Virus record (IMG/VR): IMGVR_UViG_3300037840_000148
Location: 46,832-110,831 of that record
Strand: one strand, 5' to 3'
DNA: 64,000 nucleotides
Source: a virus
Both the position numbers and the translations under genes were made by a program. Positions 8,548 through 57,839 of this stretch are shown here, in pieces; within the stretch, counting starts at the first letter, position 1; each line of letters begins with the position of its first letter. Below the pieces are notes generated by a model that searched no databases, had not been told where the DNA came from, and saw nothing but the letters and a program-made list of their open reading frames with translations.

Positions 8548-8871
8548 TTTAATACCCTCAATGAATGGCTTTATTTAAGCCTTTTCACAATTTCTCTTAA
8601 AACATCCGCCCGCTCTTCCCAAAACGAACCACCATGAAATTTATCATCAATCATTTGTAGTAACTCTTCATTTGTCTTTGGAGAATCCGGCCGCTCGTGT
8701 TTGCAGCGTTGCTCCTCTGGTATTTGCATTAAAGCTAGATATCTTCTAGCCGTATAAAAATCCAAATCAATATTATAGTCTTTATCAAGATGCAGTCCAC
8801 ACCTTATACACCAGCGGGCAGGTTTTCCATTGACGTACACATGATCGACCACCGTTTTTGCCATATTGCTC

Positions 8872-9102
8872 CTAACTTTGCGCTCTGATTTCCATCTGTT
8901 CATCAATAAACTCAGCAATTTCCTTGAGGCACGCGGAATCATAGATATTGCTAAATTGATCATAAAATGCATACCGCCGCCATGCTGAATACCACTTTAT
9001 CTGACCTAACAAGATATCCGTGTGGACTGACCGGACTTCCCAAATTTGTGTCAATCCAGTTTGACTCCGGCCAATCAAAATGAAGCTAAGATTTTGCATC
9101 AA
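8872..9102 (-). CDS. hypothetical phage protein
   Basis: LGQIKWYSAWRRY...CLKEIAEF. Confidence 0.6.
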   Translation of the reverse strand: MMQNLSFILIGRSQTGLTQIWEVRSVHTDILLGQIKWYSAWRRYAFYDQFSNIYDSACLKEIAEFIDEQMEIRAQS

Positions 9103-9601
9103 TAGTTGTTACTTCATTAAATTTAACAACAAACGGCTTTCCGGCAAAAACCTGTTTTGAAATTGAATCAAATTGGAAAAAATACCTTCTCTTTAATTTC
9201 ACGGCTGTTGCGGACCACCCAGAAACTACGACATCTTTGAACCCGCTGCTTTTTAGAGCCTTAGCAAGCGGACAGTCAATGTTGCTTGAAAAATCGGCAT
9301 CCTTTAGATGCCTCGCTGTAACCTTGATGCTCTTGATTTTTGCCATCATTCCTCCTCTGGTTTGTTTTCTCCGTGATAGATTCCGTAATGACTCCTGACG
9401 AGACAGAAAGCGCACCACGGTTCACAAAAGCCTAGTTTATGCCTGACTGCTTGTACGAAGAACAGTATACATGAAATTAGCATTTTGTCAAGTCTTTTCT
9501 TAGAAGTTTTTCCAATCGTCGAATCCGACTGATCGGAATCTTATAAATCTCAGCTAACTGCCTCGCAGTCGGGAATGGCGTCGTGATCATGATCGGTTTC
9601 T

Positions 9602-10171
9602 TCATAACGCTTTCTTTGGCCCACGGGCTTGATATTTATCCGGTTTCGCAACGAAACTTTCAAAATCCACCGGAGCGTAATTTGTGTACTCGATAGCGAA
9701 CAACCGCTGCCACGGATTATTTAACCGCTCGTGTTTCATGACATCATTGGCCGAAAAATCTCCATATTTTGGGTCATTAGGATGAAAACCGTGCCAGATA
9801 TTGTGTAGATGCCCGTGCAAATTAAGCTCTGCCCCTTCCGGTAAAGACTTAGCGGGCTCGTGTGTCAACCAACAGTTTCTAAACATCAAGCCGTCACATG
9901 CGAAATCAAATCCGGCTTTCATCCAACGGAGATTCGACCATTGCCGGTCGTGATTACCGCGAACAAGGATCTTTTTGCCTGGTAATGCCGGTATAATCCA
10001 ATCACTTTTCTTCCCGATTTGAACGTCTCCGAGATGGATTATCAAATCGTCCGGTTTCACGATTTGATTCCAATTCTTGATGATTCGCTCCGTGAAGTCC
10101 GTCGGGCGGTCGCAGTATGTCGTGATATTTTGATGATTAAAGTGGGTATCCGAGCAAATAAAAGTCTTCAT
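9602..10171 (-). CDS. calcineurin-like metallophosphoesterase
   Basis: SDTHFNH, HLGD, GNHD, HGHLH; start placed at MKTFI after GAGGA SD. Confidence 0.88.
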   Translation of the reverse strand: MKTFICSDTHFNHQNITTYCDRPTDFTERIIKNWNQIVKPDDLIIHLGDVQIGKKSDWIIPALPGKKILVRGNHDRQWSNLRWMKAGFDFACDGLMFRNCWLTHEPAKSLPEGAELNLHGHLHNIWHGFHPNDPKYGDFSANDVMKHERLNNPWQRLFAIEYTNYAPVDFESFVAKPDKYQARGPKKAL

Positions 10172-10326
10172 GTCTTCGTCCTCTTCTGGAAACCAATTAT
10201 CATGCCAATCAACTATCTTTATCATAAGGTAGCGCTGCTGCTAATACCAAGACTGCCAAGACTAGAAATATCCATAATATCCATAAAATCCACCGGTCAG
10301 GAATCGATTGAAGAAAATACAAAAAG

Positions 10327-10680
10327 CTATAATAGCCCATCTAGTGCTCCGATGCGGTAAAGGCGGTCTAGTTCGACTTGAAACCGCATCCCGTGGCCGC
10401 CATCTACAGGATAGCCTTTATAATCCTGTAAATCAAGATATGCGTGAGCCATTTCATGTAAAAGAACCAAGCTAGTAAGATTTTCATAACCCCTTAAACC
10501 GGAGTCAATCAAAATATACTTTTTATCGCTATTATAAACCCCGTCGGCATGCTTCATTCTGACCGTATTAGAAAAACCTACATAAGTCAGCATTATCTTG
10601 CTTTGAAAAAATTGAAAATTAAGTCGATCAAACTCTTTTTGGAGTTTCTTGTCCGTCATCTTTTTCATCTTTATTATCAA
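10327..10680 (-). CDS. SprT-like zinc metalloprotease
   Basis: LLHEMAH plus downstream HG..F. Confidence 0.8.
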   Translation of the reverse strand: MIIKMKKMTDKKLQKEFDRLNFQFFQSKIMLTYVGFSNTVRMKHADGVYNSDKKYILIDSGLRGYENLTSLVLLHEMAHAYLDLQDYKGYPVDGGHGMRFQVELDRLYRIGALDGLL

Positions 10681-11305
10681 TCCTCAATTCATATGTCCCG
10701 AGTTCAGCGACACATGTAAATAGCGTCCGGTCCCACTCAAGTTGTTTATCTACGTAATAATGCCCAAAACACCACTCTTTCGGTTGATGGATATCAAACA
10801 TCGCCTGTAAAGCTTCGGCTGTTCTGGACATCGAGCACTCCATCTTAGCCGTGAAATACGGCCCGACTAAAGTCATAAGAAGCATTTTAGCTATTTTAGA
10901 CGGCGCTTCGTGCGACAAAACAAACTTCGGCTTGACAGTTTCATAAAAATCAATAGCTTTTTGAAGCTCTTCGTAACTCAATTCTTCATCCGGCCACCAT
11001 GAAACGCCTGTTTGGCGCACCATTCTGTCAATTGAAAATGCCCCGGCGAGCCAGAATAGTTCATACTCAGGTAGGTATCCCCAATCACCGAGATAATTCG
11101 GGTGCTTTCGGCACTTCTCCGGATTATCGTGATTCCCCCGGAACCATTTATGGTCCTGGGACATATTATGGACGACTACACCAGAAAAGCCGACGCCCAT
11201 ATCGCCAACTTGGATGCTTTTTTGACCATCCGGAAGATTACGAACTAAACGCTTATAGTCTCCAGTCTTCCCGTGGACATCTCCAATAACGACAATTTTA
11301 GTCAT
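10628..11305 (-). CDS. calcineurin-like metallophosphoesterase
   Basis: GDVHG, GD, GNHD, SHEAP, FGH. Confidence 0.88.
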   Translation of the reverse strand: MTKIVVIGDVHGKTGDYKRLVRNLPDGQKSIQVGDMGVGFSGVVVHNMSQDHKWFRGNHDNPEKCRKHPNYLGDWGYLPEYELFWLAGAFSIDRMVRQTGVSWWPDEELSYEELQKAIDFYETVKPKFVLSHEAPSKIAKMLLMTLVGPYFTAKMECSMSRTAEALQAMFDIHQPKEWCFGHYYVDKQLEWDRTLFTCVAELGTYELRIDNKDEKDDGQETPKRV

Positions 11306-12227
11306 GTTGATCTCGATACCAATCGATTGTACGCCTTAAACCCGTCATTATATCAGTCTTTGGCTGGAAGTCAAGTAATTTCTTTGATCTAGATGTATCT
11401 AGACACCGCCTTGGTTGACCGTCTGGCTTATCTCGGTGAGTAAAAAATGGCCACTTATAACCAATAATTTCAGCTATTCTTTCTGCTATCCCAAAAATCG
11501 AAATTTCTTCACCGCTGCCGAGGTTAATTGGATCAGGCTCATTATAGATTTCCATCGCTTTGACAATCGCTTCGGCACAATCTTCAACATAAAGAAAGTC
11601 GCGTGTTGTAAGACCGGAACCCCACATATCAACAAACTTCTCATTATTCTTGACTGCGAAATCAATTTTCTTAATCAATGCCGGAATAACGTGACTTGTT
11701 TCAGAATCGAAGTTATCCCCCGGCCCGTAAAGATTTGTCGGGATCAAATAGATTGAATTAAAAAGATATTGCTGACGTAATGCCTGACTATACGTCAATA
11801 ATAGCTTCTTAGCCAGACCGTATGGCGCGTTTGTTTCCTCCGGATAGCCATTATGGATGTCTTCTTCCTTGAACGGCACCGACGTCATTTTAGGGTAGGA
11901 ACAAACAGTCCCGACAGTCACGAGTTTCTCGATGTCGAAGTCTTTCGCGGCTCTCATTATTTCCAAACCCATCACGGCATTATCATATAGAAAGTCAGCC
12001 GGACTAGTTTGATTCGCACCGATTCCACCGACGTTAGCGGCTAAATGGATTACTATTTCCGGACCTTCTATCGAAAACATCCCGTCAACGTCTGTTTGAT
12101 TTGTAAGATCATACCGTTCGTGTGACGGAACAATGACGTCTGAATACCCCCGTTCCCACAGCTTCTGACAGACGTGCTTGCCGAGAAAGCCGTGACCGCC
12201 GGTGACTAAAATACGTTTACTTAGCAT
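11298..12227 (-). CDS. fcl: GDP-L-fucose synthase
   Basis: [51 protein letters not shown]. Confidence 0.95.
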
Positions 12228-13170
12228 ATATTTCCGAGTTCACCATGATTTTTACTAATTCTTTGAACTTCACTTTTGGCGTCCAACCGAGTTTTTCCTT
12301 TGCGTAAGAGGCGTCTCCTAACAAGTTTTCAACTTCCGTCGGACGATAATACTTCGGGTCAACTTCGACATAATCTTCCCAATCTAGTCCAAGATATGTA
12401 AACGCCTCATAACAGAATTCACGGACTGAATGTGATTCACCGGTTGCTAGGACATAATCATCCGGAATATCTCGCTGAAGCATCCGCCACATCCCTTCAA
12501 CAAATTCCGGCGCGTATCCCCAATCTCTCGTGGCCGACAAATTACCGAGTCTCAGAACGCCGCGCAGACCGCGATAAATCTCGACAGCACCTTTGACAAT
12601 CTTCTGAGTTACGAATGTCTCGCCTCGCCGCGGTGATTCGTGGTTGAACAAAATCCCGTTTGAAACGTGCATCTTATATCCTTCTCGATAATTCCTTGCC
12701 ATCCAATATCCATACAATTTAGAAATGCCGTACGGGCTGCGAGGCGCAAATTTTGTATATTCATTCTGAGGAACGCAAGTAGTATTACCAAACATTTCGC
12801 TACTCGATGCCTGATAAAACCTTGATTCAGGCACGATATCTCGAACGGCTTCTAATAAACGTAATGTTCCAATAGCATCAGCGTTAGTTGTGTATTCCGG
12901 GATATCAAAACTACTCCGAACGTGTGATTGTGCCCCCAATGCGTAAATTTCATCTGGTTTTGAATCATATACTAGTTTTCGGATTGATCCGGTATCCGTT
13001 AAATCGGCATAAATCAAATTTAACTTATCAAAAATATGGTCGATTCTTCTAGTATTAAAACTAGACGATCTACGTAAAGAACCGTAGACAGAATAACCCT
13101 TCTGCAATAAAAGTTCGGCGAGATAAGAACCGTCCTGGCCCGTAATTCCAGTGATCAAAGCACGCTTCAT
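12217..13170 (-). CDS. gmd: GDP-mannose 4,6-dehydratase
   Basis: [49 protein letters not shown]. Confidence 0.97.
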
Positions 13171-14885
13171 CGACGGCCTCGTTGCGAATCCCGCTGCTCT
13201 CTGAACTTCCTGGCGCTTTCAATCCTGTCCTGTCGTTCTTTATCGTTTGATTTCGGTGTAATTCGGCCGTTATCCAAAACGCGGTCTGCCCAATCCGCGC
13301 CGGGGTATATGTTGCTGAGATACGGCGGATGTAAACCGCGAATTTCGTCGAGTTTCTTGCCATTCCGTTCGATAAATAGCGAACACCCAGCATAGAAATG
13401 CGGGAATTCCGGTTCGTTAGCTAGAAACATTGCTGGTTCTTTTGTCAAGGACATTTTCAAATTGTAGCAAATCCAGCTTGCCGCGCTTTGGTCATGCCTG
13501 TGTCCGAGAACATCAGGATTGCTTGATGCTTGAAGTTTTTCGTTTGTCCACGGACCTCGGAAGACGCCAAGTTTAGCCAACCGCTTATATTCTTCAAAGA
13601 ATTGAACCGCGGTGGGGTTCAGGAAATTCAAAGCAAAAGCCGTACAGATTACCTGCGGAACCTTCTTCATTTCATTCCGCTGACGGTCGATTAGTTTCAA
13701 AGCCTCGTCAGAGATCCACTCGTAATTAGTATTAGGTCCGTTAATCGAGATCCAATAACCTTGCTTCTCGACTAAATTCCAGATTGTTTCAAGACTCCTG
13801 ACCGCGATAACGGATGAATCCGCCCACAGAATCTTAGTATAGCCTAGCCGCCGGGCTTCCTCGATAGCGTGGATCTTGAATTCATATGGACTGTCTTCGT
13901 GTGTCGGTGAGCCGACCGGCAGGACATCCTTGAACGTCATGATTTTCGCGCCTGGGCTATTGACTTGCATCTGATGAACGAACCGGTCGAGGTTATCCGA
14001 GAAAGGCTTCCCGATCAGTTCTTCTTCATTCTGTTTCCCTGTATACTCACGTTTTCCTACCGCGACTGTCACGATTGTTTTATCCGTGCTGAGACTACCC
14101 ATAAGCTGCCACCTCCGTGGAATCATATCTCTTGAATCTAGATGTTCGACTACAAACCACTTCCGTGGGGCGCAGACGATCCTGTCAGCTTTATTATCCC
14201 CCAAAAATGCCGCCCACCAACCGTAGCTGGAATTCGAAATTACTGCGTGCTGACATTGACTCATTAAGTGCATATCCCAAAAACGGTCGCCAGTTGAAAT
14301 TATTTCGCCTTCGATGTTTTCATGGCACCAATCCGGATCATCGCTAAAAATGAAAGGCTTCGCGTGCGGATACTTTTGCCTGATACTATTAATACAATTT
14401 TGATAATACGCTATCGGCATCAAGCCATGATAATCCTGTAAACTGACATAATCGCCACGACGAACATGGACGCCAACTGAATCACTTGTGTTTAGTATTT
14501 TATTCAACAATTCGCTGACGTCTTTTTTAGGAAAGTTCTTTGGAACAAACTCCTTTCGAAGCTCATCAGCGACACACTCAATATACCGTTCGCTTTGCCA
14601 ATGCCCCGTCAATGTGCAGTTTCGTGGTGGATCGTAGATGTCCGGCCGGAATGTCATATTAGAGTCTGTGATTTCAGGACCATCAGAGTCACCGAAAACA
14701 ATCTTCGTCTTGAAGCCGTCAAGGCCGTATTGTGGCTTATTCAAAGCATGCGGCTCATTAGACGCAGGCAGAAGGTCACGTTTTTTAAATACGACTTCGT
14801 AGCCACGTTTTTGTAAACTTCGGCCCATCGCGTATTGAAAAAGTTGGTTCCCGAGACCGCCCATCAGCGCGATTGCGATTGGCAT
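13167..14885 (-). CDS. GT11 alpha-1,2-fucosyltransferase fused to a second glycosyltransferase-like domain
   Basis: [31 protein letters not shown]; C-terminal half has LWADSS and HRHDQS. Confidence 0.88.
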
Positions 14886-15421
14886 TCAATCTCCTTCTTT
14901 TCCATCCACTCAAGCACTTTTCTAACTTGTTCAGTCGTTGCTTTTGATTTTATCGCGTTAGCTAAATATGATATAACCGAACAATTTTCTTTTGTGTATC
15001 CTAACTCTGGTATAAATCTATCCAAACTTGCAGACGTATCAGTTTGTGTAAAATGCGATAAATTAAATGGTGTACCAAAAACAGGACATTTACCATTTCC
15101 GATTAGCTCCAAAAGATCCTCTTTCGTAATACTTATTGGTAAATTCATCTTTTTAGCTCTTTGTTTCGCAGATGTTAGCATTTGTTGAGCCACAGCAGGA
15201 AATCCTATACACATTTTACACTGGTGTCTAATTCGACCGTGCCCGCAAATCTGATGACCGCCACAATCAGGACATCTTGATTTTCTACGACTATGTATGC
15301 AAAACTGATTTCCTGTTCCACATTTACTACATTGAATGGGAACATTTCCGTGTTTACAAAAAGGCCCTATATTGCACTCTTTACAACAATTCTTTCTTCT
15401 GCCATGTTTACAATTACTCAT
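14864..15421 (-). CDS. HNH-type endonuclease with N-terminal CxHG Zn repeats
   Basis: repeated C-x-H-G..C..C; CPVFG, SLDRF.PELGYTKEN, AN.IK; AT-rich. Confidence 0.75.
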   Translation of the reverse strand: MSNCKHGRRKNCCKECNIGPFCKHGNVPIQCSKCGTGNQFCIHSRRKSRCPDCGGHQICGHGRIRHQCKMCIGFPAVAQQMLTSAKQRAKKMNLPISITKEDLLELIGNGKCPVFGTPFNLSHFTQTDTSASLDRFIPELGYTKENCSVISYLANAIKSKATTEQVRKVLEWMEKKEIECQSQSR

Positions 15422-16104
15422 TTATTTTTTAAAAAATCAGGATGAAACCTTCTTATTTTCTCTGTATACTCTTCTTTTTTATTCCATCCAACAGATGCAA
15501 ACTGATTTTCTCTTCTCCTATACCAAAAAAGAGGCTCATTAATAGAAGCCATTTTCCAATTTCTAGCTAATATCTCGATCCACAAAAACCAATCTTCCCA
15601 ACTATCAATATCTGTTCTATAACCTCCTGCCTGCAGAAACGCTTCCCGGTCAATCAAAGACGTCACGGGGATTTCATTACTCTGCAATTGCTCTTCATAC
15701 GTTCTGTTCTTAATCGGAATAACGCCGTTTTCAATCCCGAAATACATCATCTCCGTCGAGACAATCCCGATTCCGGCAGTCATCAACGGCAAAGTCTTCT
15801 TGATGAAGTCCGGACGAATCATGTCGTCGGCATCTAACGGCAGAATGTAATCACCACATGACAAGCTGACGGCGTGATTCCTAGCTGCCGCAGGTCCGGC
15901 ATTTTTCTGCCGAACGAGCTTAATCAAATTTCCTTCATTGATAAATTTCTCGACGGTCGCGTAACTCGTATCCGTCGAGCCATCATCCACGACAATTATC
16001 TCCCGTTTGACACCCTCGACTGGGTGTTGATTGATAGCCGAAAATACACTGCTTTCAATCGTCGCGGCGGCATTAAACATCGGGATAATTATGCTGACAA
16101 TCAT
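15418..16104 (-). CDS. glycosyltransferase family 2
   Basis: SIIIP.FN, VVDDGSTD, ARN, LDADD, EDW. Confidence 0.92.
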   Translation of the reverse strand: MIVSIIIPMFNAAATIESSVFSAINQHPVEGVKREIIVVDDGSTDTSYATVEKFINEGNLIKLVRQKNAGPAAARNHAVSLSCGDYILPLDADDMIRPDFIKKTLPLMTAGIGIVSTEMMYFGIENGVIPIKNRTYEEQLQSNEIPVTSLIDREAFLQAGGYRTDIDSWEDWFLWIEILARNWKMASINEPLFWYRRRENQFASVGWNKKEEYTEKIRRFHPDFLKNK

Positions 16105-16107
16105 AAT

Positions 16108-16254
16108 TTACTCAAACTTAAACGGCCAAAATTTTAAACGTTCCCATATAGACATCACTATATAGATAATTGCTATCCCAAGAGCCATACCCATAAAAGC
16201 TATAAAATACCCAACTATAGCGGCATAAAGAACCATCATTACGAATGTCTTCAT
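16108..16254 (-). CDS. small membrane protein (not in ORF track)
   Basis: 48-aa hydrophobic ORF, ATGA overlap with GT6 stop. Confidence 0.45.
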   Translation of the reverse strand: MKTFVMMVLYAAIVGYFIAFMGMALGIAIIYIVMSIWERLKFWPFKFE

Positions 16255-16946
16255 TTCTGAAAGCCCTTTTCACGCGCAACTAAAATTGGCTGATACTTCG
16301 CTCGGACTGAATCGTACCCCGGTCCTGCTGTTGGCTCTGGATAACAATACGCCGGTGTCAGGATTTTCGCGGGCGGGTTATAGTGTAAATAGTGGTTCAA
16401 GTGACTTTCATCATTATGGATTGCGATACAACCCCACTCTAGATCTTTATCGATGTTGTCTCGTAACGTTCTAGCCATTTTGAGATACGCTTGGGCATTA
16501 CCACCATTAAAGCCGCCGCAGAAATAATACTTATTGCCTACAAGATAGGCGGTCGATTGCGGTCTTGTGCTTTCAGGAACTCCCGGGCCACCTTCCGGAT
16601 AGCCGGGATGTAACGTCGCCGTGATGCCTTGACTGTAAATATTTCCGACTGGCGCGACGAATTCCATATCAGCATCGACCCAGAAGATTTGATCATACGT
16701 TTCTAATTCTTTTTCAAGTATCAACATCGTATGATACCTGAAAAGCGTTTCTTTCGGGAAGCCTTTCGGTTCGATAATTACCATTTGTTTTATAATATCA
16801 GCAGGATAAGAATCAATAAAACAATCACTAAAAAGGAAAACATCTATCCCCTCCGGATAAAAGAATTTTTTGGCAGACCTGATCATCGTTTTAGCGAAAG
16901 GCCAGTACTGTTCGCCTGTCGCGATACAAATCAAGGCTATTTTCAT
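16251..16946 (-). CDS. glycosyltransferase family 6 (ABO-type alpha-1,3-Gal/GalNAc transferase-like)
   Basis: IATG.Y, VDADM, TLHPGY, YFCGGFNGG, DESHLNHY, PAYCYPE. Confidence 0.88.
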   Translation of the reverse strand: MKIALICIATGEQYWPFAKTMIRSAKKFFYPEGIDVFLFSDCFIDSYPADIIKQMVIIEPKGFPKETLFRYHTMLILEKELETYDQIFWVDADMEFVAPVGNIYSQGITATLHPGYPEGGPGVPESTRPQSTAYLVGNKYYFCGGFNGGNAQAYLKMARTLRDNIDKDLEWGCIAIHNDESHLNHYLHYNPPAKILTPAYCYPEPTAGPGYDSVRAKYQPILVAREKGFQK

Positions 16947-17770
16947 CTTCGGTTCTTCCGTTGCTCTTTAAACTTCCTACCCGATTCCATTCTAGCACGA
17001 GCCTCGTCGTTTGTCAACATCTTTAATTTCGGTTGCTTACTGAGCATCTTCATGACGTCGTATTCTTCGCTAGCGACTTCTTCGTACCACGGCTCAGGAC
17101 GGCCGTGACGGTAAATTTCACGGATCATCTCAGGGAAAAATTTATGTTCGAAAACTGCAAACCGCTTGACGTGCCATGAAGCGTTGCACTCTAAATCCGG
17201 AAGATCTATAGCATGAATCACTTTAGCTCGAATAAACGGCCCGAGTACCTGTCCGACGCCAAGGTCTTCTGCCCATCCTTGAACTCCCTTCGCGGCGATA
17301 ATGTTTGCTGCGTGTCTAGAAATCCAATACCCGACCCCCCCAGACGCCCAGGGCTCGCAACGCTCATGAAGTATCTCGTGACAATCCCGGTAAGTAAAAA
17401 TCGAGCCTATCGGCGGATCGAGTCCAAACATCCCGGCGTAATCATATTCACGGAATGACGTCCCTAACAAAGCGTGCGGAATAATGAAAGTATCGTTATC
17501 ACATAAAAACGTGAAATCATATCCGTTCTGGACTGACCACTCAGCAATCTTGGTCGTTTTGGCAGGCAGGTCGTCATAGCCGTCTTTGCAGTCCAGTTGA
17601 GTTTCGTCCTGCTGGTAGCCGCCGAAACCTGACTGGTGTTCACCACACCCAGTGAAGAAACGAACGTCCGCTTTACCAGCGAAATCTTTCCCCCACGTAG
17701 CGCGTATCGCCTCATGGAAGCCAAGATCTAGATCGCGGCAGCACGTCTTAAGAGCTATGAGTATTTTCAT
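16943..17770 (-). CDS. GT31/Fringe-like galactosyltransferase
   Basis: IRATWG, DGYDDLP.KT, LCDNDT, SGG.GY..SR, EDL.VG. Confidence 0.78.
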   Translation of the reverse strand: MKILIALKTCCRDLDLGFHEAIRATWGKDFAGKADVRFFTGCGEHQSGFGGYQQDETQLDCKDGYDDLPAKTTKIAEWSVQNGYDFTFLCDNDTFIIPHALLGTSFREYDYAGMFGLDPPIGSIFTYRDCHEILHERCEPWASGGVGYWISRHAANIIAAKGVQGWAEDLGVGQVLGPFIRAKVIHAIDLPDLECNASWHVKRFAVFEHKFFPEMIREIYRHGRPEPWYEEVASEEYDVMKMLSKQPKLKMLTNDEARARMESGRKFKEQRKNRR

Positions 17771-18091
17771 CTTCTTTAATCCACAGGACTAATCGATCAT
17801 AGTGTTCTTGACACAAAAACGAATTATGATTAGCAAAATGCCAAATCTTTACAGCCTCTCGACGGCAGGCCGTAGCCCAAGTTTTAGACCATTTAAAGGC
17901 TCCAATAAAATCACCTTTTTCATCTATTTTAACGAATTCACAAAGTCTTCCTATCATCTTGTTCTCTTTGACTCTATAATCATAGCCAAAACCCGACCGA
18001 TTTGACAACATTCTTGCAAATTTTTAGCATTAAGACACCGCTCGCAAGCCCTAACGTGGTTATTCAAACTCTCCTGATCTTTGTCCATTAC

Positions 18092-19051
18092 TTATTTCCA
18101 AATTTGACTTACTATCGCATCCAATTTTGCGTTTATTTCAGTTTGTTCTTTAGCGTAATCTCGGCGTCCAAGAATGGTATCAATCATTTTTCGCGCTTCA
18201 TCAAGCGGCAGCCTTAGTCCAGCGGCATGTTGGTGCCCGCCGCCGAGAAACTTCTTAGCAATTTCACTGACGTCGATATCACCAATCGACCGAAGACTAA
18301 ATTGTACTTGCCCATCATGTCTCTCGAAGTATGTCAACGAGACGTCGGCGTTCTGTGCCAAAGTATTCCCGACTTCGCTGCAGTTGACATACGGGCACCC
18401 GACGACAAGCGTTGTATACGGTCGGTTATTAACCCACCAGACGCCTTTCTGGGCTTCGGCTGCGACTTCACGGACGTATATGTCGATGTATCTCAAGACT
18501 GGAATTCCGAATTGCTCGGCTTGTTCGACTTTGATTTTATCAAGATAGTCCCATTCTTCGATTGTGAATTTCAACGTCGAAATATAAGCGTTGACAGCTT
18601 TTGAGTTCGGTAATGCCCAATTCCATAAATCCCTATCCTCAACATAACTGACATACCACGGTCGTGTTTGATAAACGAACGGTTTCCCGATTTTTTCACC
18701 TTCCCAAATTATTGGTCTGTCTTTTCCAAATAAATAATCCCACGCCAGACCTGCGCCGCTTCGTTTCATGTCAAACGTCACGAATGGCAAGCCCTCCAGC
18801 CGCTCCTGTGCAGTCCTGTGATGATCGTATATATGAAAACTCTTCGCGAGATCATGTAATTTGATGTTGTCTTCCCTGACCGGCCAACTGAAATCCAAAA
18901 CTAATACATCGCGCCCTTTAACCACGTCAAACGGGACGGGCGAGCCGTGGTCTAACGGCATGATTTCAGCGTCTGGATAACGTTTCTTAGCAATAAAGGC
19001 AGCGCACCAACCATCAGGACATTTTGCGTGTGTGATGATAAAATTTATCAT
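18092..19051 (-). CDS. DHH/DHHA1 phosphoesterase
   Basis: CPDG, LDFS, DHH, DRDLW, FSLRS, GGGH..AAG. Confidence 0.9.
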   Translation of the reverse strand: MINFIITHAKCPDGWCAAFIAKKRYPDAEIMPLDHGSPVPFDVVKGRDVLVLDFSWPVREDNIKLHDLAKSFHIYDHHRTAQERLEGLPFVTFDMKRSGAGLAWDYLFGKDRPIIWEGEKIGKPFVYQTRPWYVSYVEDRDLWNWALPNSKAVNAYISTLKFTIEEWDYLDKIKVEQAEQFGIPVLRYIDIYVREVAAEAQKGVWWVNNRPYTTLVVGCPYVNCSEVGNTLAQNADVSLTYFERHDGQVQFSLRSIGDIDVSEIAKKFLGGGHQHAAGLRLPLDEARKMIDTILGRRDYAKEQTEINAKLDAIVSQIWK

Positions 19052-19737
19052 TAGTGTTTCCTTTGATTTAATCTTTGTTCATGTGCTGTTGCCCATTGAA
19101 CATTTCCAGACTCATAATGCCCGTCATTTTTGATTCTATCTAATGAGTGTTTAGGGCTGGGTTTAGGCCCTAATTCAGATAAAAATTGTTCAAAATTCGT
19201 AAATAAAAATTTAATGCCCCTACCACCGTAATCTTTCCATCTAGGATTAGTTTCATAAGTACAGCGGTGTTTTGCATCTTTATAAGCACTCCATTCAGGT
19301 GTGCCGGACATCCCATGTTTTACAATAGCTGGATTATCAGAAATATTTCTTAATGTTATTGTGTCTTTTCTTAAACAACTACAACTTTTTGTTAAACCTT
19401 TTGTTAAAGAAGTGCCTATCACAATGGTTTCTTTTCCACATTTGCACTCGCATAACCAATAAATACGTTGCTTACCGGATCTTCTAATTTGATTTTTTAC
19501 CGTTAATCGCCCAAATACTTTATTATTTAAATTAGCTACTTCGTTTTTTAAACATCCGCAACTTTGAATTTTACCGTTTAAAAGTTTACTAGCTAATACA
19601 ACTTTTTTGTTTCCACAATCACATAAACAAAGCCACCCGCATCTTGATTCAGTTGAGGTAATTATTCTCACGTCGCTTTTTTCAATAACCACCAATCGTC
19701 CAGAACGGAAACCTTTAATTAATTCAAGTTTCTTCAT
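19051..19737 (-). CDS. free-standing HNH homing endonuclease
   Basis: two GRL.V..W.C.C.CG..SCGC repeats; YGGRGI, SLDRIKNDGHY..GNV.WAT..EQ..N. Confidence 0.85.
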   Translation of the reverse strand: MKKLELIKGFRSGRLVVIEKSDVRIITSTESRCGWLCLCDCGNKKVVLASKLLNGKIQSCGCLKNEVANLNNKVFGRLTVKNQIRRSGKQRIYWLCECKCGKETIVIGTSLTKGLTKSCSCLRKDTITLRNISDNPAIVKHGMSGTPEWSAYKDAKHRCTYETNPRWKDYGGRGIKFLFTNFEQFLSELGPKPSPKHSLDRIKNDGHYESGNVQWATAHEQRLNQRKH

Positions 19738-20521
19738 AGTCTATCCTACCATCTCCAAGAACGTATTTTTTAATTTTTCTTTTTATAAAACATGGGCGCT
19801 GCGGATCTTGCGCCCGACGCCGATAAAGATTATATCTAGGACTATTTCTAATTTTTTGTTCATTTATACCAACTCCCGAAACATAAACTGTTTTTAAGCC
19901 TGATTTTTTGCAGTCAAGGAAGAATGCGGCGTGCTCGGCCCCACCTATCTTAGGTTCAGGCACGTCCCAACGTATTCCAGCCGCGTTTAAATGATCCATT
20001 CTAATCAACGAATAATTGACTGTTAAATCGCAATAAACAAATGGCGATTGCCAATACTCTTCCGCCGACAACGGACGTTCATACCATTCGCCGGGCTGTC
20101 TTTCAATAAGATGAAATTCATACGGGCTATTATTGACTCGACCACTAGCGATACTAACTGGCGGATATTCTTCAAGAACCCGTTCGAGCCTTTTGATTCC
20201 TTGTCGAACTTCAGTAGGTGCGAAATCAAAATCGTCTGCACCAATCAATAAAAATTTTCTTTTAGTCCTTTCGACAATTGAGTTGCTCATGACCCCAAAT
20301 CCACTATCGAAAGGCAAATCAATGTGGATGTGTCCGTCGCGCTCTAACCCCGCGTAATACGAGTCTTTTTCCTCCGTCATGTCGCCGCAATCCGCGATAA
20401 TCATCTGCGCTCCGGGCAAATTAGTCCTGATGGCGTGCAGCGTATTAAACAACTGCTCGTCTCTTAAAAACGTCTTGATGCCGATACTGAGATTTTCAAA
20501 CATCAATCTATTTTCCGCCAA
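19724..20521 (-). CDS. glycosyltransferase family 2 (B4GALNT-like)
   Basis: IKTFLR, IIAD, LPFDSG, ADDF, CDLTVNY, EH..FF. Confidence 0.72.
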   Translation of the reverse strand: MAENRLMFENLSIGIKTFLRDEQLFNTLHAIRTNLPGAQMIIADCGDMTEEKDSYYAGLERDGHIHIDLPFDSGFGVMSNSIVERTKRKFLLIGADDFDFAPTEVRQGIKRLERVLEEYPPVSIASGRVNNSPYEFHLIERQPGEWYERPLSAEEYWQSPFVYCDLTVNYSLIRMDHLNAAGIRWDVPEPKIGGAEHAAFFLDCKKSGLKTVYVSGVGINEQKIRNSPRYNLYRRRAQDPQRPCFIKRKIKKYVLGDGRIDYEET

Positions 20522-20707
20522 CCTTGGAGGTTCAAAGAGATAGCTTCTAATTTTTGCTCCAAAGTGAAGATCTCCCGCGTCCTAGCGATATACGCCTGCT
20601 CGATGGCTTTAAGATATACCAAAAGCTCCTCGGTGTTGATTTCGCCTTCCGCGCCTAATTTTTCAAGAAAGCCTTCCAACTTTCCGATGCAGAAACCTAC
20701 TGTAGGA

Positions 20708-21121
20708 TTATTTTCCATTATTTTCTACCTTTTGGATATGATGAATAAATTCGGAACCGCCTCGTTTCCACCCTGCGGCATCTTCAAAAGCCTTAAAAAT
20801 TTCCTTGACATTAAACTGATATCCGGCCTTGTTAGCCTCTCCCACAAATGATTTGTTATTTAGAAGTTTAAAAATCATAGGAATAGATTTCAAGATCTCT
20901 TTATTTGCAGCGGTTTCAAAAGTTTCTGGGGCATATTTCATCGCTCGATATTCTGTCATTATTCCACGTACCAAATCTCTGAACCGGTTGCGCCAACTGT
21001 TATTTTCACGACGGGCGACTTCTTTTGCAAATTTTTCACTTTTAAAAGCTTCCGTAGTAGGTTTCCAACCATCGTTAAGAAGCTTCTGTTCATTATACTC
21101 TATAACCCATAATTCGCTCAT
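20708..21121 (-). CDS. hypothetical protein
   Basis: 137-aa ORF with AGGAG SD. Confidence 0.55.
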   Translation of the reverse strand: MSELWVIEYNEQKLLNDGWKPTTEAFKSEKFAKEVARRENNSWRNRFRDLVRGIMTEYRAMKYAPETFETAANKEILKSIPMIFKLLNNKSFVGEANKAGYQFNVKEIFKAFEDAAGWKRGGSEFIHHIQKVENNGK

Positions 21122-21621
21122 TATCGACTCCTATTAATCCTTCTAGATTTCTTTTGCTGTTTCTGTTTCGCTCGACTCTTTGTGTGACTCTTCCTACGGA
21201 GTATCTGCAGAGCTTCACCTCGGGCTGCCTGCATCGCTTTCTCGGCGTCTGCGATTTGCTTCGGGTAATACTTGTCAAAGATGTCTTGTGTCAACTGGAC
21301 AAGTTGCAGCATCCTTGCTGAGTGGTGACTTTTAATTCTTTTCTTAGCGAACGCCTGAGCGCCGTAGATCCCTTTTCTAGTATTGTGTGGCGCTGGTGTG
21401 ACAATCCGCTGCTCACACTCATGACTCGACCGGTGCCTTAAACCGCAGACTTTACAATTAATCATCTTGCCTAATTCGACATTCCGGCCTGCAAAACTCC
21501 GCTCAGTAAACTCTTCCCGAAATTTTTTGATGGCTTCCGCAACGTCAACTTGCGGATTTTCATCATTCACAATTTCTTTAACTTCGTCCTTAACTTCGTC
21601 CATCTTCCCTCTTTTCATCAT
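21121..21621 (-). CDS. hypothetical basic protein with Zn motif
   Basis: CKVC..RH...HEC; basic C-terminus. Confidence 0.6.
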   Translation of the reverse strand: MMKRGKMDEVKDEVKEIVNDENPQVDVAEAIKKFREEFTERSFAGRNVELGKMINCKVCGLRHRSSHECEQRIVTPAPHNTRKGIYGAQAFAKKRIKSHHSARMLQLVQLTQDIFDKYYPKQIADAEKAMQAARGEALQILRRKSHTKSRAKQKQQKKSRRINRSR

Positions 21622-22246
21622 CGGTCATTTTAAAACCTTCCGCGATTCTCTTCCCGACGCCGCCTTGATTTGTCCGCTCGTCTGCGATTCTAGCGAATGG
21701 CGTCCTGCCCCAATCAAAGTTCCTGCCTGCCCCTGTTGTTGGGTCGTCCGGCGGTTCAGGCTTGATGCCCATTTCAATCCTAGCTTCCAGAATCATCAAG
21801 CCGTAAGCTTCAATCCGTTCTATCTCGTCTTTATTGCCATCGACATAAGCCCGTTCGATATGACTTTTTTCTACCGTCGCTACCCGTGGCGTTTTCAGTG
21901 CCAGAACCGACCGGTATGTCGTCTTGCCATCTTTGCCTTCCGAGCCGACCGAGACTAAAACGATATCGTCGCCGTGTTTCCGGATTGGATACGTCTTCTC
22001 GACTTCCCCGGTTTTACCACAGTGCTGGCAATTCTTCTTTGCCGCGGTATTTAAACACATCGGGCAAGGTTCTTTACCCGTCAGGTACTTCGTACTCAAA
22101 ACAATCCATTGTGCTAAACCACGTTCGACTAATTTCGTGGCTTCTAGTAACGGAACCTTTTTACGGCACCGGCACGTTCTGGGTTTACTTTCGTTAAGGT
22201 GCTGGCTGAAACAATAATGGACCCGGGACAACTTGATGACAGGCAT
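21590..22246 (-). CDS. hypothetical Zn-finger protein
   Basis: CPMC...CQHCGKTG; AGGAG SD. Confidence 0.65.
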   Translation of the reverse strand: MPVIKLSRVHYCFSQHLNESKPRTCRCRKKVPLLEATKLVERGLAQWIVLSTKYLTGKEPCPMCLNTAAKKNCQHCGKTGEVEKTYPIRKHGDDIVLVSVGSEGKDGKTTYRSVLALKTPRVATVEKSHIERAYVDGNKDEIERIEAYGLMILEARIEMGIKPEPPDDPTTGAGRNFDWGRTPFARIADERTNQGGVGKRIAEGFKMTDDEKREDGRS

Positions 22247-22305
22247 AAACTCCTAATAGTACTAAATTACTGAAAATAATAACTTTAAAAGTGGGCATTT
22301 CTTCC

Positions 22306-22337
22306 TCCCAAGGTAGACGGGAGTGCCACACCATTTT
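22306..22337 (-). promoter_or_regulatory. GGTGTGGCA-N8-TACnnT motif, copy 1
   Basis: minus strand AAAATGGTGTGGCActcccgtcTACCTTGGGA; four copies in the window. Confidence 0.65.
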
Positions 22338-24571: not shown

Positions 24572-24739
24572 CCTTGCGGGTCTGTGAACGTCAAATTACT
24601 ACAGTTGACCCGACAATCATCAAAACCTTTCCCGCCGTAGGCATCCTCGTCGCCTTCCATATATTCTACCCAACTATAGAAGGCGTTCTCTTCCTCGACG
24701 TGAATAACGTAATCGTGGCCGTCGTTGTCACTTACTAAT

Positions 24740-56565: not shown

Positions 56566-57210
56566 ATGAAAGTCTTGATAGCCATACTCAGTTATAATCA
56601 AGGCCGACAGCATCATGAACTGATAAGAAACACTTGGCTACAAGGCTGCAAAACAGACTATAAGTTTATTTTAGGAAACGAAACTAAAGATCCGCAGCAG
56701 GATGAACTGGTTGTAGACTCCCAAGATACATACTACGACCTAATTTTTAAAGTCGAGAAGTCGGTCGAGTATGCATTGATTAATAATTATGATTATTTGT
56801 TTAGATGCGATCTTGATACCTATGTTTGTATAGATCGTCTCTTACGATCCGGATTCGAGCAACATGATTGGTCAGGATACGGAGAGCCTTACGGCGGAAG
56901 CGGTTATTGGCTTAGTCGGAAAGCAACGCAAGCCTTAATTGATAATACGAATTATCTTGATGTCTATGAAAGCGAAGATACTCACGTAGCTCGGATATTA
57001 CGCCAGCAAGGCTTTACACCTTTTCAAGACAGAAGGTACTATTCTTCAACCAATGAAGGTCCAAGCCTAGATAACGATTTAATCACCAGCCATTGGTATG
57101 TTGAGGTAAATGCCGTACGTAATGGTAAGATTTATGATCGCCGGATAGATTTATACGAACGTTTAAGACTGATTCCTGTTTATCATGAAAAAGCAAAATT
57201 TTTAAAATAG
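56566..57210 (+). CDS. GT31/Fringe-like glycosyltransferase
   Basis: IRNTW, DTYYDL.FK, RCDLDTY, GGSGYWLSRKA, SED..V. Confidence 0.78.
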   Translation: MKVLIAILSYNQGRQHHELIRNTWLQGCKTDYKFILGNETKDPQQDELVVDSQDTYYDLIFKVEKSVEYALINNYDYLFRCDLDTYVCIDRLLRSGFEQHDWSGYGEPYGGSGYWLSRKATQALIDNTNYLDVYESEDTHVARILRQQGFTPFQDRRYYSSTNEGPSLDNDLITSHWYVEVNAVRNGKIYDRRIDLYERLRLIPVYHEKAKFLK

Positions 57211-57834: not shown

Positions 57835-57839
57835 AAGTT

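What the first reader, a model, noticed from the sequence alone, without database searches (positions are those of the whole stretch)
11298..20521. Phage cluster with the enzyme set for an ABO-blood-group-like glycan
Seen: co-oriented gmd, fcl, GT11, GT6, GT31-like and two GT2 genes. Established: Gmd and Fcl make GDP-L-fucose; GT31 enzymes add beta-1,3-Gal; GT11 adds alpha-1,2-Fuc (H-type); GT6 adds alpha-1,3-Gal or GalNAc to H (B/A type). The GT6 has a DxD motif (VDAD) rather than the NxN of many bacterial GT6. Inference: the phage builds a fucosylated A/B-like oligosaccharide on virion proteins, DNA or the host surface. No flippase or polymerase is present and the enzymes look soluble, which favours a cytoplasmic acceptor such as the capsid.
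Basis: partly seen in the sequence, partly recalled or inferred. Interest (0 to 1): 0.82.

Follow-up and report, generated by a model that had tools for sequence, protein, structure and literature searches.

The report
Phage blood-group-type sugar-building gene cassette
An uncultured 111-kb phage carries a tightly packed set of soluble enzymes that make GDP-fucose and should build a fucosylated, blood-group-like sugar chain. The same enzyme pairing is already annotated in published cyanophages, and what the sugar is attached to remains unknown.

Summary
Window 11298-20521 (minus strand) encodes Fcl, Gmd, a GT11 fucosyltransferase, a GT2, a DxD-type GT6, a GT31-like enzyme and a second GT-A enzyme. 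Corrections:
- The "second GT2" is B4GALNT1 (GT12)-like.
- The GT11 gene is fused to a glycosyltransferase domain of an uncharacterised GT-A family.
- Two HNH-type endonucleases and a DHH phosphoesterase are interspersed.

The window lies in a complete 110,831-bp phage genome far from any cultured phage.

The cassette is not unique. DxD-type GT6 genes occur in 486 IMG/VR loci. Of the best 80, 71 have GT11 within 10 kb and 38 have Gmd. P-SSM2 (2005) already carries annotated GT11 and GT6. This scan has met the module before on other DNA.

New here: in this ~100-kb phage lineage, the GT12-like, DHH and GT31-like genes are conserved. GT6, GT11, GT2, Gmd and Fcl are a variable add-on. This GT6 also has His at the acceptor-contact Trp, so H-antigen specificity is less certain than for its relatives.

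DNA glycosylation is disfavoured, because no hydroxymethyl-base pathway was found. The choice between virion protein and host envelope as acceptor stays open. Lack of a flippase and enzyme solubility do not discriminate between them.

Verdict: real, a new member of a known kind, of moderate interest.

The parts
11298..12227 (-). Fcl, GDP-L-fucose synthase (GDP-4-keto-6-deoxymannose 3,5-epimerase/4-reductase), 309 aa
   Evidence: NF047922 is the top hit (285 bits, below the equivalog cut-off of 500). All best PDB hits are GDP-L-fucose synthases over the full length, 7.5e-70. The Ser/Thr-x-Cys, Tyr-x3-Lys and His residues of the active site are conserved in that alignment.
12217..13170 (-). Gmd, GDP-mannose 4,6-dehydratase, 317 aa
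   Evidence: TIGR01472 scores 453.7 bits, above the cut-off of 415. PF16363 scores 430 bits.
14090..14885 (-). GT11 alpha-1,2-fucosyltransferase domain (aa 1 to about 265 of the 572-aa ORF 13167-14885)
   Evidence: PF01531 scores 102 bits against a cut-off of 23.9. [17 protein letters not shown] and [12 protein letters not shown] motifs are present. Homologues in related phages are stand-alone proteins of 237-279 aa.
13401..14075 (-). Second glycosyltransferase-like domain fused to GT11 (aa 271 to about 495), of an uncharacterised GT-A family
   Evidence: No Pfam or NCBIfam hit. The family has 959 cluster representatives, mostly stand-alone proteins of about 225 aa. The AF2 model has pLDDT 83, above 94 over aa 1-210 apart from one dip to 87. 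Best folds: BoGT6a Z 12.0, PBCV-1 A64R Z 10.8, GTB Z 10.5, glycogenin and LgtC about Z 10. Elsewhere the domain is fused to GT2, FkbM or other methyltransferases and LicD. In L015 it is a separate gene directly after GT11.
13167..13244 (-). Basic C-terminal tail of the GT11 fusion (..[17 protein letters not shown])
   Evidence: It resembles the tail of the GT31-like protein at protein and DNA level. It is predicted helical with pLDDT about 78.
14864..15421 (-). Cys-rich HNH/EndoVII-type endonuclease, probably a selfish insertion and not part of the pathway
   Evidence: phrog_3322 endonuclease 9e-33 and phrog_3118 HNH. No homologue in any of the 80 related loci.
15418..16104 (-). GT2 family glycosyltransferase, 228 aa, soluble
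   Evidence: PF00535 scores 102 bits. Present next to GT6 and GT11 in 37 of 80 viral loci.
16251..16946 (-). GT6 retaining alpha-1,3-Gal/GalNAc-transferase homologue of the minimal DxD type, 231 aa
   Evidence: PF03414 scores 67 bits and NF041524 138 bits. BoGT6a 2.7e-27, human GTA/GTB about 1e-18. D91-A-D93 and the catalytic E180 are present. The donor pocket C143-G-G-F resembles LGGF of GTA. His177 stands at the Trp300/Trp189 position.
16943..17770 (-). GT31-like glycosyltransferase, 275 aa, with a basic C-terminal tail (..SGRKFKEQRKNRR)
   Evidence: PF01762 scores 19.9 bits, below the cut-off of 23. Most homologues carry PF01762. The family profile hits B3GALT5 at 2.4e-10, C1GALT1 and B3GALT6. 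RxTW, DxD (DND) and EDxxxG motifs are present. The tail is conserved in the three closest homologues.
17748..18011 (-). 87-aa ORF of unknown function
   Evidence: No family hit.
18092..19051 (-). DHH/DHHA1 phosphoesterase, 319 aa. Its position between the two core transferases is conserved in the lineage. A role in the glycan pathway is not shown.
   Evidence: phrog_4771 2.5e-72 and PF02272. Syntenic in L005, L009, L014, L020, L032, L035, G006 and G007.
19051..19737 (-). HNH homing-type endonuclease, not part of the pathway
   Evidence: phrog_374 1.9e-60. Present at this position in only 1 related locus (L007).
19724..20521 (-). GT12-like (B4GALNT1-like) GT-A glycosyltransferase, 265 aa. It is a core gene of the lineage.
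   Evidence: No Pfam hit for this protein. The family profile hits human B4GALNT1 at 2.9e-14 over 188 positions. A few homologues carry PF00535. The DDF motif is invariant. Present in every lineage genome examined.
56566..57210 (+). Second GT31-like gene, outside the cluster. It may belong to the same pathway.
   Evidence: PF01762 scores 33 bits, above the cut-off of 23. It is 40% identical to a GT31 paralogue in the glycan locus of related phage G006.

Best explanation
This is a phage-borne cytoplasmic assembly line for a fucosylated oligosaccharide.

Shown by homology:
- Gmd and Fcl convert host GDP-mannose to GDP-L-fucose.

Inferred:
- The lineage-conserved inverting GT-A enzymes (GT12-like and GT31-like), together with the GT2, lay down a beta-linked inner chain from host UDP-sugars.
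- The GT11 domain adds alpha-1,2-fucose to a terminal beta-Gal.
- The metal-dependent DxD GT6 adds an alpha-1,3-hexose to that Gal. Its GTA-like donor pocket points to GalNAc.
- The GT-A domain fused to GT11 adds one further, unknown residue.

In this phage lineage the inner enzymes are fixed and the fucose/GT6 cap is a swappable add-on.

My committed guess for the acceptor, and the least secure step, is a phage-encoded protein, most likely a virion component. The glycan would be a variable surface coat of the particle, as in chloroviruses and mycobacteriophages.
For: Enzymology:
- Family assignments.
- Translationally coupled gene order.
- GT6 and GT11 co-occur in 71 of 80 viral loci, and 22 of those have a gap of 300 bp or less.
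- PaGT6, the characterised member of the DxD clade, has the substrate specificity of BoGT6a (UDP-GalNAc donor, 2'-fucosyllactose acceptor) and needs a divalent metal (PMC3516806).
- Gene fusions link the steps: GT11 with the GT-A domain here, and GT31 with GT6 in L015.

Core versus variable parts:
- The GT12-like and GT31-like genes are present in all lineage genomes examined, where TerL identity is 28-56%.
- GT6 is absent from complete G006. GT6, GT11 and GT2 are absent from G007. Gmd and Fcl are absent from G001 and G005.

A phage-encoded acceptor:
- The inner enzymes stay conserved across phages that must infect different hosts. That is easiest to explain if the acceptor travels with the phage.
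- The genome has no priming phosphoglycosyl transferase, flippase, polymerase or ligase.
- The genome looks lytic and autonomous: 28 tRNAs, its own polymerase, RNR and ThyX.
- The cassette lies between the replication block and the lysis genes on one strand.
- The second-best fold match of the fused domain is the PBCV-1 capsid glycosyltransferase A64R.
- There is precedent for virion glycosylation by phage-encoded transferases (Freeman et al. 2023, as summarised in PMC12619734).
Against: - No glycosylated protein is identified, and no feature of the structural proteins points to one.
- Every biochemically characterised prokaryotic GT6 and GT11 works on lipid-linked LPS or O-antigen or on free oligosaccharide, not on protein.
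- The GT6 has a non-canonical acceptor site, so the A/H-like product is uncertain.
- A tyrosine-recombinase-like gene at 740-1732 leaves lysogeny, and so surface conversion, possible.
- The host and the expression timing are unknown.
Confidence: 0.4

Rival explanations
1. Host-envelope remodelling. The same enzymes act at the cytoplasmic face of the inner membrane on the host's lipid-linked (Und-PP) O-unit, LPS core or capsule precursor. The host's own flippase, polymerase and ligase then export the altered, fucosylated glycan. This would change the cell surface during infection or lysogeny, giving superinfection exclusion, avoidance of progeny loss on debris, or serotype conversion.
For: - All characterised bacterial homologues work this way: E. 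coli O86 WbnI/WbnK with gmd and fcl, BoGT6a, and FutC-type GT11 (reference list and text of PMC3516806).
- Those enzymes are also soluble or peripheral, so fit this reading equally well.
- It is the standard reading of cyanophage 'LPS' or cell-wall clusters (PMC9602691).
- The variable cassette content resembles O-antigen locus variation.
- The basic C-terminal tails on two enzymes could hold them at anionic membranes, like the basic-hydrophobic-basic tail of bacterial GT6 (PMC3516806).
- An integrase-like gene is present.
Against: - The inner transferases would have to recognise each host's own lipid-linked acceptor, yet they are conserved across phages whose TerL is only 28-56% identical.
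- The cassette is embedded in a lytic-type replication and lysis transcription block, with no promoter or terminator signal of its own above background.
- The tails are highly charged with few hydrophobic residues, so they are not classical amphipathic membrane anchors.
Confidence: 0.35
2. DNA hypermodification. The transferases build a glycan on hydroxymethylated bases of the phage genome to block restriction, as shown for phage GT-A and GT-B enzymes acting on 5hmC.
For: - Phage GT-A enzymes, sequential transferases and epimerases do hypermodify 5hmC DNA with diverse glycans, and some resemble PBCV-1 A64R (bioRxiv 10.1101/2023.12.21.572611).
- The cassette lies among replication and nucleotide-metabolism genes.
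- Two enzymes carry Arg/Lys-rich tails that could bind nucleic acid.
Against: - The complete genome has no ThyA-like hydroxymethylase, no TET/JBP dioxygenase and no C5-cytosine methyltransferase. Only ThyX is present.
- GT11 and GT6 need sugar acceptors, and no fucosylated DNA is known.
- The cited study itself rates transferases without a neighbouring base-modification enzyme as unlikely DNA modifiers.
Confidence: 0.05
3. The glycan is made on another acceptor: a free oligosaccharide, a small molecule or a host protein. Alternatively the cassette is a passenger 'auxiliary' island of little consequence, shuffled by the homing endonucleases.
For: - No acceptor is identifiable.
- Two HNH endonuclease genes sit inside the cassette.
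- Content varies strongly between relatives.
Against: - All reading frames are intact and translationally coupled.
- Catalytic motifs are conserved.
- The module recurs in 486 viral loci, with the core genes retained across the lineage.

These points argue for selection on function.
Confidence: 0.15

Closest known systems
Glycosyltransferase ('LPS' / cell-wall) clusters of T4-like cyanophages: P-SSM2 (PSSM2_260-271: GT2, GT2, GT1, GT11, GT6, GT25, sugar epimerases), S-8S55 (GT11 directly before the GT6 homologue), S-SCSM1 (gmd, fcl, alpha-1,2-fucosyltransferase and several transferases)
   Same: A phage-encoded GT11 and a DxD-type GT6 lie close together with GT2 enzymes and nucleotide-sugar genes. 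All are soluble, and the acceptor is unknown (PMC9602691; PMC3516806).
   Different: The phage lineage is unrelated: a ~100-kb genome with an SU10-like portal, and TerL at most 24% identical to any cultured phage. GT6 is only 34% identical to that of P-SSM2. This cassette adds GT31-like and GT12-like enzymes that are the conserved core of the lineage, and a GT11 fusion to an uncharacterised GT-A domain.
E. coli O86 O-antigen pathway (WbnJ GT2, WbnK GT11, WbnI GT6, with gmd and fcl), which makes a blood-group-B-like unit
   Same: The same families and the same biosynthetic logic: a beta-Gal backbone, then alpha-1,2-Fuc, then an alpha-1,3 cap, with its own GDP-fucose supply. The source is my own knowledge of the O86 literature, which is cited as ref. 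13 of PMC3516806.
   Different: O86 has an initiating transferase, Wzx, Wzy and a known Und-PP acceptor, and none of these is encoded here. According to PMC3516806, bacterial GT6 enzymes other than PaGT6 have NxN in place of DxD and carry a C-terminal membrane-binding domain. This enzyme is of the minimal DxD type.
PaGT6 of Parachlamydia acanthamoebae and BoGT6a of Bacteroides ovatus (characterised prokaryotic blood-group-A synthases)
   Same: The GT6 fold is the closest solved relative (BoGT6a, 2.7e-27). Like PaGT6, this enzyme has a minimal catalytic domain with DxD. The catalytic Glu, the His of HPG, a Tyr and a small-residue donor pocket are conserved (PMC3516806).
   Different: His replaces the acceptor-contact Trp189, and Pro/Val replaces Thr134. 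The Trp-to-His change is found in none of 80 viral homologues. No activity has been measured.
Virion glycosylation systems: chlorovirus PBCV-1 (its own GMD/GMER and capsid transferase A64R) and mycobacteriophage capsid and tail-tube glycosylation
   Same: A lytic virus encodes both nucleotide-sugar synthesis and several soluble GT-A transferases. The fused GT-A domain matches A64R at Z 10.8. The target classes are summarised in PMC12619734.
   Different: No glycosylated structural protein is known here. The transferase families differ. The resemblance is one of working principle, not of membership.
Phage DNA glycan hypermodification clusters (C5-MT / 5mYOX or ThyS with GT-A or GT-B enzymes)
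   Same: Sequential phage GT-A enzymes lie next to replication genes (bioRxiv 10.1101/2023.12.21.572611).
   Different: The defining precursor enzymes are absent from the complete genome.

Membership tests
CAZy GT6, minimal DxD clade (P-SSM2 / PaGT6 type) | Match to the GT6 family model above the curated threshold | tested here: met
   PF03414 scores 67.4 bits against a cut-off of 25. BoGT6a 2.7e-27 and GTA 1.6e-18.
CAZy GT6, minimal DxD clade (P-SSM2 / PaGT6 type) | DxD metal-binding motif, the catalytic Glu of the DES motif, and a catalytic domain of about 230 aa without stem, TM segment or basic-hydrophobic-basic tail | tested here: met
   D91-A-D93 aligns with DVD of GTA and NAN of BoGT6a. 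E180 aligns with E303/E192. The protein is 231 aa with no hydrophobic segment. D91 and D93 are invariant in 27 homologues.
Histo-blood-group A/B synthase (functional class: alpha-1,3-GalNAc/Gal onto Fuc-alpha-1,2-Gal) | Acceptor-contact residues shared by BoGT6a and GTA/GTB (His122, Thr134, Tyr153, Trp189, Glu192 in BoGT6a numbering) | tested here: not met
   His, Tyr and Glu are conserved. Trp189 is His177 here and Thr134 is Pro124/Val123. Of 80 viral homologues, 69 have Trp-His and 4 have Trp-Asn at this site, none has His-Asn, and the other 7 gave no clean motif match.
Histo-blood-group A/B synthase (functional class: alpha-1,3-GalNAc/Gal onto Fuc-alpha-1,2-Gal) | Donor-pocket residues (GTA Gly235, Leu266, Gly268 against GTB Ser, Met, Ala) | tested here: inconclusive
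   Gly115, Cys143 and Gly145 are GTA/BoGT6a-like, with room for an N-acetyl group. This predicts the donor but does not prove it.
Histo-blood-group A/B synthase (functional class: alpha-1,3-GalNAc/Gal onto Fuc-alpha-1,2-Gal) | Measured transferase activity | not testable with these tools
   Needs recombinant enzyme assays.
CAZy GT11 alpha-1,2-fucosyltransferase | Family model above threshold and the HxRRGDY GDP-fucose motif | tested here: met
   PF01531 scores 102 bits against a cut-off of 23.9. HVRRGDY is seen in the translation.
CAZy GT31 | Family model above the curated threshold | tested here: inconclusive
   PF01762 scores 19.9 bits, below the cut-off of 23, for this protein. Most homologues carry PF01762. 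The family profile hits four solved GT31 enzymes, best 2.4e-10. RxTW, DxD and EDxxxG motifs are present.
CAZy GT12 (B4GALNT1/2-type beta-1,4-GalNAc-transferases) | Sequence homology of the catalytic domain | tested here: inconclusive
   The profile of 29 homologues hits human B4GALNT1 at 2.9e-14 over 188 positions, and it is the only significant PDB hit. The protein itself has no Pfam hit, and a few homologues score as GT2. The sialylated acceptor of the animal enzymes has no counterpart here.
GDP-L-fucose de novo pathway (Gmd + Fcl) | Equivalog-level matches for both enzymes | tested here: met
   Gmd: TIGR01472 scores 454 bits against a cut-off of 415. Fcl: NF047922 scores 285 bits, below its cut-off of 500. 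However, the 18 best PDB hits are all GDP-L-fucose synthases (7.5e-70 to 4e-32) and the catalytic residues are conserved.
Wzx/Wzy-type O-antigen or capsule gene cluster | Initiating phosphoglycosyl transferase, flippase, polymerase or ligase (polytopic membrane proteins) | tested here: not met
   No ORF in the 110.8-kb genome has more than 4 hydrophobic 19-mers, and the single 4-segment ORF is only 125 aa (a crude hydropathy scan).
Phage DNA glycan-hypermodification cluster | An enzyme that makes the hydroxymethyl base (ThyA-like hydroxymethylase, or C5-MT plus TET/JBP dioxygenase) | tested here: not met
   PF00303, PF12851 and PF00145 have no match at E <= 0.1 in the complete genome. The controls matched for PF00303 and PF00145 in 10 of 14 genomes, but the PF12851 control was uninformative.
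Virion glycosylation system (PBCV-1 / mycobacteriophage type) | A glycan found on a structural protein and dependent on virus-encoded transferases | not testable with these tools
   Needs virions. Only a fold resemblance of one domain to A64R was obtained.

The most novel reading that the evidence does not exclude
A family of ~100-kb soil or freshwater tailed phages coats its own particles with a glycan. The inner part is fixed by lineage-conserved GT12-like and GT31-like enzymes. The outer part, a fucose and alpha-GalNAc/Gal histo-blood-group-like cap, is swapped between relatives like a serotype. These would be the first tailed-phage virions known to carry ABH-like glycans. It would also make phages the main reservoir and vehicle of the 'animal-type' GT6, GT11, GT12 and GT31 enzyme families.
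Probability: 0.25. Interest if true: 0.8.

Novelty: new member of a known kind. Interest (0 to 1): 0.4.

Why it matters
Phage gene sets that pair GT11 and GT6 with a GDP-fucose supply are abundant: 486 IMG/VR loci, against 20 loci in a collection of one genome for each of 185,579 species. They have been annotated since P-SSM2 in 2005, yet their product and target have never been determined.

This genome gives a compact version, complete and with intact reading frames. It shows that within one phage lineage the blood-group-like cap is an exchangeable add-on to a conserved inner glycan. That pattern is expected of a surface structure under diversifying selection.

Finding the acceptor (virion, host envelope or other) would settle a 20-year-old open point about cyanophage 'LPS' genes. 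It would also bear on the proposed role of phages in moving GT6 between bacteria and vertebrates (PMC3516806). The uncharacterised GT-A family fused to GT11 is a candidate new glycosyltransferase family.

Tried and rejected
- Megablast of the 9.2-kb cluster against 50,697 phage records found no match.
- A single-protein GT6 scan of IMG/VR found nothing. An alignment-based scan was needed.
- The promoter/terminator scan of 8500-24800 gave 42 promoter-like sites against 30 +/- 5.5 expected, and terminators at expectation. There is no clear boundary around the cassette.
- A search for the basic tail motif in 80 related loci found it only in this genome's two proteins. The three closest GT31-like homologues do keep a similar tail.
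- A search for Ser/Thr-rich tails or known domains in the structural proteins, as a hint of a glycosylation target, was not informative.
- Host prediction was not achieved. TerL is only 24% identical to a Tunturiibacter (Acidobacteriota) phage, and the GH108 endolysin was not interpreted further.
- One pattern search of the own genome was ill-conceived and gave nothing.
- Freeman et al. 2023 (PMC10527164) is not held. It is cited only through PMC12619734 and PMC12801897.
- I considered and rejected that the DxD motif makes this GT6 unusual. It is the norm for the phage clade.

Full report
**What is there**

The window is bases 46832-110831 of a complete 110,831-bp IMG/VR virus record with 127-bp terminal repeats. 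The record is clearly a phage:
- It has a large terminase, an SU10-like portal, a DNA polymerase, a primase/helicase, ribonucleotide reductase, ThyX and a GH108 endolysin.
- It has 28 tRNA genes.
- It is far from every cultured phage. The best TerL identity is 24%, to a Tunturiibacter phage.

From 20521 down to 11298, eleven minus-strand ORFs overlap or abut. In order of transcription they are:
1. A 265-aa GT-A enzyme.
2. An HNH endonuclease.
3. A DHH phosphoesterase.
4. An 87-aa ORF.
5. A GT31-like enzyme.
6. GT6.
7. GT2.
8. A Cys-rich HNH/EndoVII-type endonuclease.
9. A 572-aa GT11 fusion protein.
10. Gmd.
11. Fcl.

**Checking the family assignments**

| Gene | Result |
|---|---|
| Gmd | Passes the TIGR01472 equivalog cut-off (454 against 415 bits) |
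| Fcl | Below the NF047922 cut-off (285 against 500 bits). Its 18 best PDB hits are all GDP-L-fucose synthases (best 7.5e-70, full length), with catalytic Ser/Thr-x-Cys, Tyr-x3-Lys and His conserved |
| GT11 | 102 bits, with HVRRGDY |
| GT2 | 102 bits |
| GT6 | 67 bits. Closest solved relative BoGT6a (2.7e-27), then human GTA/GTB (about 1e-18) |
| GT31-like | Below the Pfam cut-off on its own (19.9 against 23 bits). Most homologues carry PF01762, and a 23-sequence profile hits B3GALT5 (2.4e-10), C1GALT1, B3GALT6 and B3GNT2. The three GT31 motifs are visible |
A 29-sequence profile hits only human B4GALNT1 (GT12) at 2.9e-14 | 34, 58 |

None of the proteins has a TM-like segment. The genome has no polytopic membrane protein that could be a priming transferase, flippase, polymerase or ligase.

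**The GT11 gene is a fusion**

Residues 271 to about 495 of the 572-aa protein have no Pfam or NCBIfam match. They belong to a large family of 959 cluster representatives, mostly stand-alone proteins of about 225 aa.
- A model built on 38 sequences is confident (pLDDT 83 overall, above 94 over the first 210 residues apart from one dip to 87).
- It has a GT-A fold. The nearest structures are BoGT6a (Z 12.0, 180 residues aligned), the PBCV-1 capsid glycosyltransferase A64R (Z 10.8), GTB (Z 10.5), and glycogenin and LgtC at about Z 10.
- In other proteins this domain is fused to GT2, to FkbM-type and other methyltransferases, and to LicD.
- In locus L015 it is a separate gene right after GT11, and there GT31 and GT6 are fused into one 488-aa ORF.

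These fusions tie the steps together. They also make the domain a probable sixth transferase.

**The GT6 in detail**

D91-A-D93 aligns with DVD of human GTA and with NAN of BoGT6a. E180 aligns with the catalytic Glu.

A DxD motif on a ~230-aa enzyme without a membrane tail is not odd. It defines the clade already described for cyanophage P-SSM2, marine metagenome sequences and PaGT6. PaGT6 is metal-dependent and has the substrate specificity of BoGT6a, that is UDP-GalNAc as donor and 2'-fucosyllactose as acceptor (PMC3516806).

The donor pocket (Gly115; Cys143-Gly-Gly145-Phe) is like that of GTA (Gly235; Leu266-Gly-Gly268-Phe) and BoGT6a (AGGL), not like GTB or alpha-3GT. GalNAc is therefore the better guess.

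The acceptor side deviates. Of the five contacts shared by BoGT6a and GTA/GTB, His, Tyr and Glu are kept. Trp189/Trp300 is His177 here, and Thr134 is Pro/Val. Of 80 viral homologues, 69 have Trp-His and 4 have Trp-Asn at this site, none has His-Asn, and the other 7 gave no clean motif match. Only the closest metagenomic homologue, P0002, shares the change. The step 'GT6 acts on an H-type acceptor' is therefore less secure for this enzyme than for its relatives.

**How common the module is**

- An alignment-based scan found 486 GT6 loci in IMG/VR, on contigs from 10 to 483 kb.
- Only 20 loci were found in a collection of one genome for each of 185,579 prokaryotic species. They include Chlamydiia, Babeliaceae, Planctomycetes and some probably mis-binned phage contigs.
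- In the 80 best viral loci, GT11 lies within 10 kb of GT6 in 71 and within 300 bp in 22. Gmd at 35% identity or more is present in 38, Fcl in 17 and both in 16.
- Published isolates already show the pairing. P-SSM2 has annotated GT11 (PSSM2_265) and GT6 (PSSM2_268) among GT2, GT1 and GT25 enzymes and epimerases. S-8S55 has GT11 directly before the GT6 homologue. S-SCSM1 has gmd, fcl, an alpha-1,2-fucosyltransferase and five transferases, read by its authors as cell-wall modification genes (PMC9602691).
- No held paper combines the terms phage, blood group, GT11 and GT6.
- This scan has reported the module several times on other DNA, with the same verdict: real, of a known kind, acceptor unknown.

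**What this lineage adds**

Five complete or nearly complete ~100-kb genomes found through GT6 share TerL (28-56% identity) and a 432-aa structural-module protein (37-39% identity) with this phage.

The backbone of the locus is syntenic in these relatives: PD-(D/E)XK nuclease, then small conserved ORFs, then the GT12-like gene, DHH, the GT31-like gene, a variable stretch, and a metallophosphoesterase.

The GT12-like and GT31-like genes are present in every lineage genome examined. The rest varies:
- Complete G006 has GT11, Gmd, another SDR and three extra GT31 paralogues, but no GT6 or GT2.
- G007 (81% complete) has only the GT12-like, DHH and GT31-like trio.
- G001 and G005 lack Gmd and Fcl.
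- G003 has Gmd but no Fcl.
- Gene order within the variable stretch also differs between relatives.
- In this genome, two HNH endonuclease genes sit inside the cassette. One has no counterpart in the 80 related loci and the other only two.

So the blood-group-like part is an exchangeable outer module on a conserved inner pair of transferases.

**Where the glycan goes**

DNA is the least likely acceptor. Phage GT-A enzymes can hypermodify 5hmC with glycans (bioRxiv 10.1101/2023.12.21.572611). But the complete genome has no ThyA-like hydroxymethylase, no TET/JBP dioxygenase and no C5-methyltransferase, only ThyX.

Between host envelope and virion protein, the sequence does not decide.

For the host envelope:
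- All characterised prokaryotic GT6 and GT11 enzymes work in LPS or O-antigen synthesis.
- The variable content resembles an O-antigen locus.
- An integrase-like gene is present.

For a phage-encoded acceptor:
- The inner transferases stay conserved across deeply diverged phages that presumably meet different host glycans.
- The genome is autonomous and lytic in style.
- The cassette lies between the replication genes and the lysis genes on one strand.
- The fused domain has an A64R-like fold.
- There are precedents in chloroviruses and mycobacteriophages (PMC12619734).

I commit, weakly, to a virion or other phage protein (0.40) over the host envelope (0.35).

**A side observation**

The GT31-like protein and the GT11 fusion end in similar Arg/Lys-rich tails (..GRKFKEQRKNRR and ..[15 protein letters not shown]).
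- The two DNA segments match at about half of ~110 aligned columns and at 21 of 24 bases in the core.
- The three closest GT31-like homologues keep such a tail. More distant ones, and all other GT11 homologues, lack it.
- The tail may bring both enzymes to one partner: membrane, nucleic acid or an assembly intermediate. This is unexplained.

**Verdict**

The A/B-like product is plausible but unproven for this GT6, and the capsid inference is not established. The finding is a new member of a known kind of phage glycan cassette. Its useful new points are the core-plus-variable architecture in one lineage, the fusion of GT11 to a new GT-A family, and the altered GT6 acceptor site.

Noticed in passing
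window 13167-13244 and 16943-17020 (minus strand): Two unrelated transferases (the GT11 fusion and the GT31-like protein) end in similar Arg/Lys-rich tails. The coding DNA is also similar (21 of 24 bases in the core). The tail is kept in the three closest GT31-like homologues but absent from more distant ones. Its function is unknown; it may act in recruitment to a common partner.
   Followed up: partly
window 13401-14075 (minus strand); proteins P0122-P0270: An uncharacterised GT-A family of about 225 aa has no Pfam model and 959 cluster representatives. Its conserved motifs are LWxDxS and GHRHDQ. It is fused elsewhere to GT2, FkbM or other methyltransferases and LicD. It is a candidate new glycosyltransferase family.
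   Followed up: partly
window 56566-57210 (+): A second GT31-like gene (PF01762, 33 bits) lies far from the cluster on the other strand, just before the tRNA array. It is related to GT31 paralogues that sit inside the glycan locus of related phage G006.
   Followed up: partly
window 57760-63194 (+): An array of 28 tRNA genes covering 18 amino acids.
   Followed up: no
window 9602-10225 and 10628-11305 (minus strand): Two calcineurin-like metallophosphoesterase genes lie directly downstream of Fcl. The second is also found next to the glycan locus in L032 and L035 (about 50% identity). A link to nucleotide or sugar-nucleotide turnover is possible but untested.
   Followed up: no
window 24740-27154 and 31485-34304 (minus strand): The helicase (804 aa) and the ribonucleotide reductase (939 aa) match their PHROG profiles with large unmatched internal stretches or in two pieces. 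This suggests inserts such as inteins.
   Followed up: no
window 740-1732 (minus strand): A tyrosine-recombinase-like gene (phrog_1 4e-27; the Pfam catalytic domain is just below its cut-off) sits in a genome that otherwise looks lytic. A homologue is present in related phage G007 (36% identity).
   Followed up: partly
G000:C1:22000-22374 (+), outside the window: A 124-aa protein within the structural module has a classical N-terminal signal peptide (..AVAASAQSA).
   Followed up: no
L015 9227-10693: In a 265-kb phage contig the GT31-like and GT6 enzymes are fused into one 488-aa ORF. It is followed by GT11 and a stand-alone copy of the new GT-A domain.
   Followed up: partly
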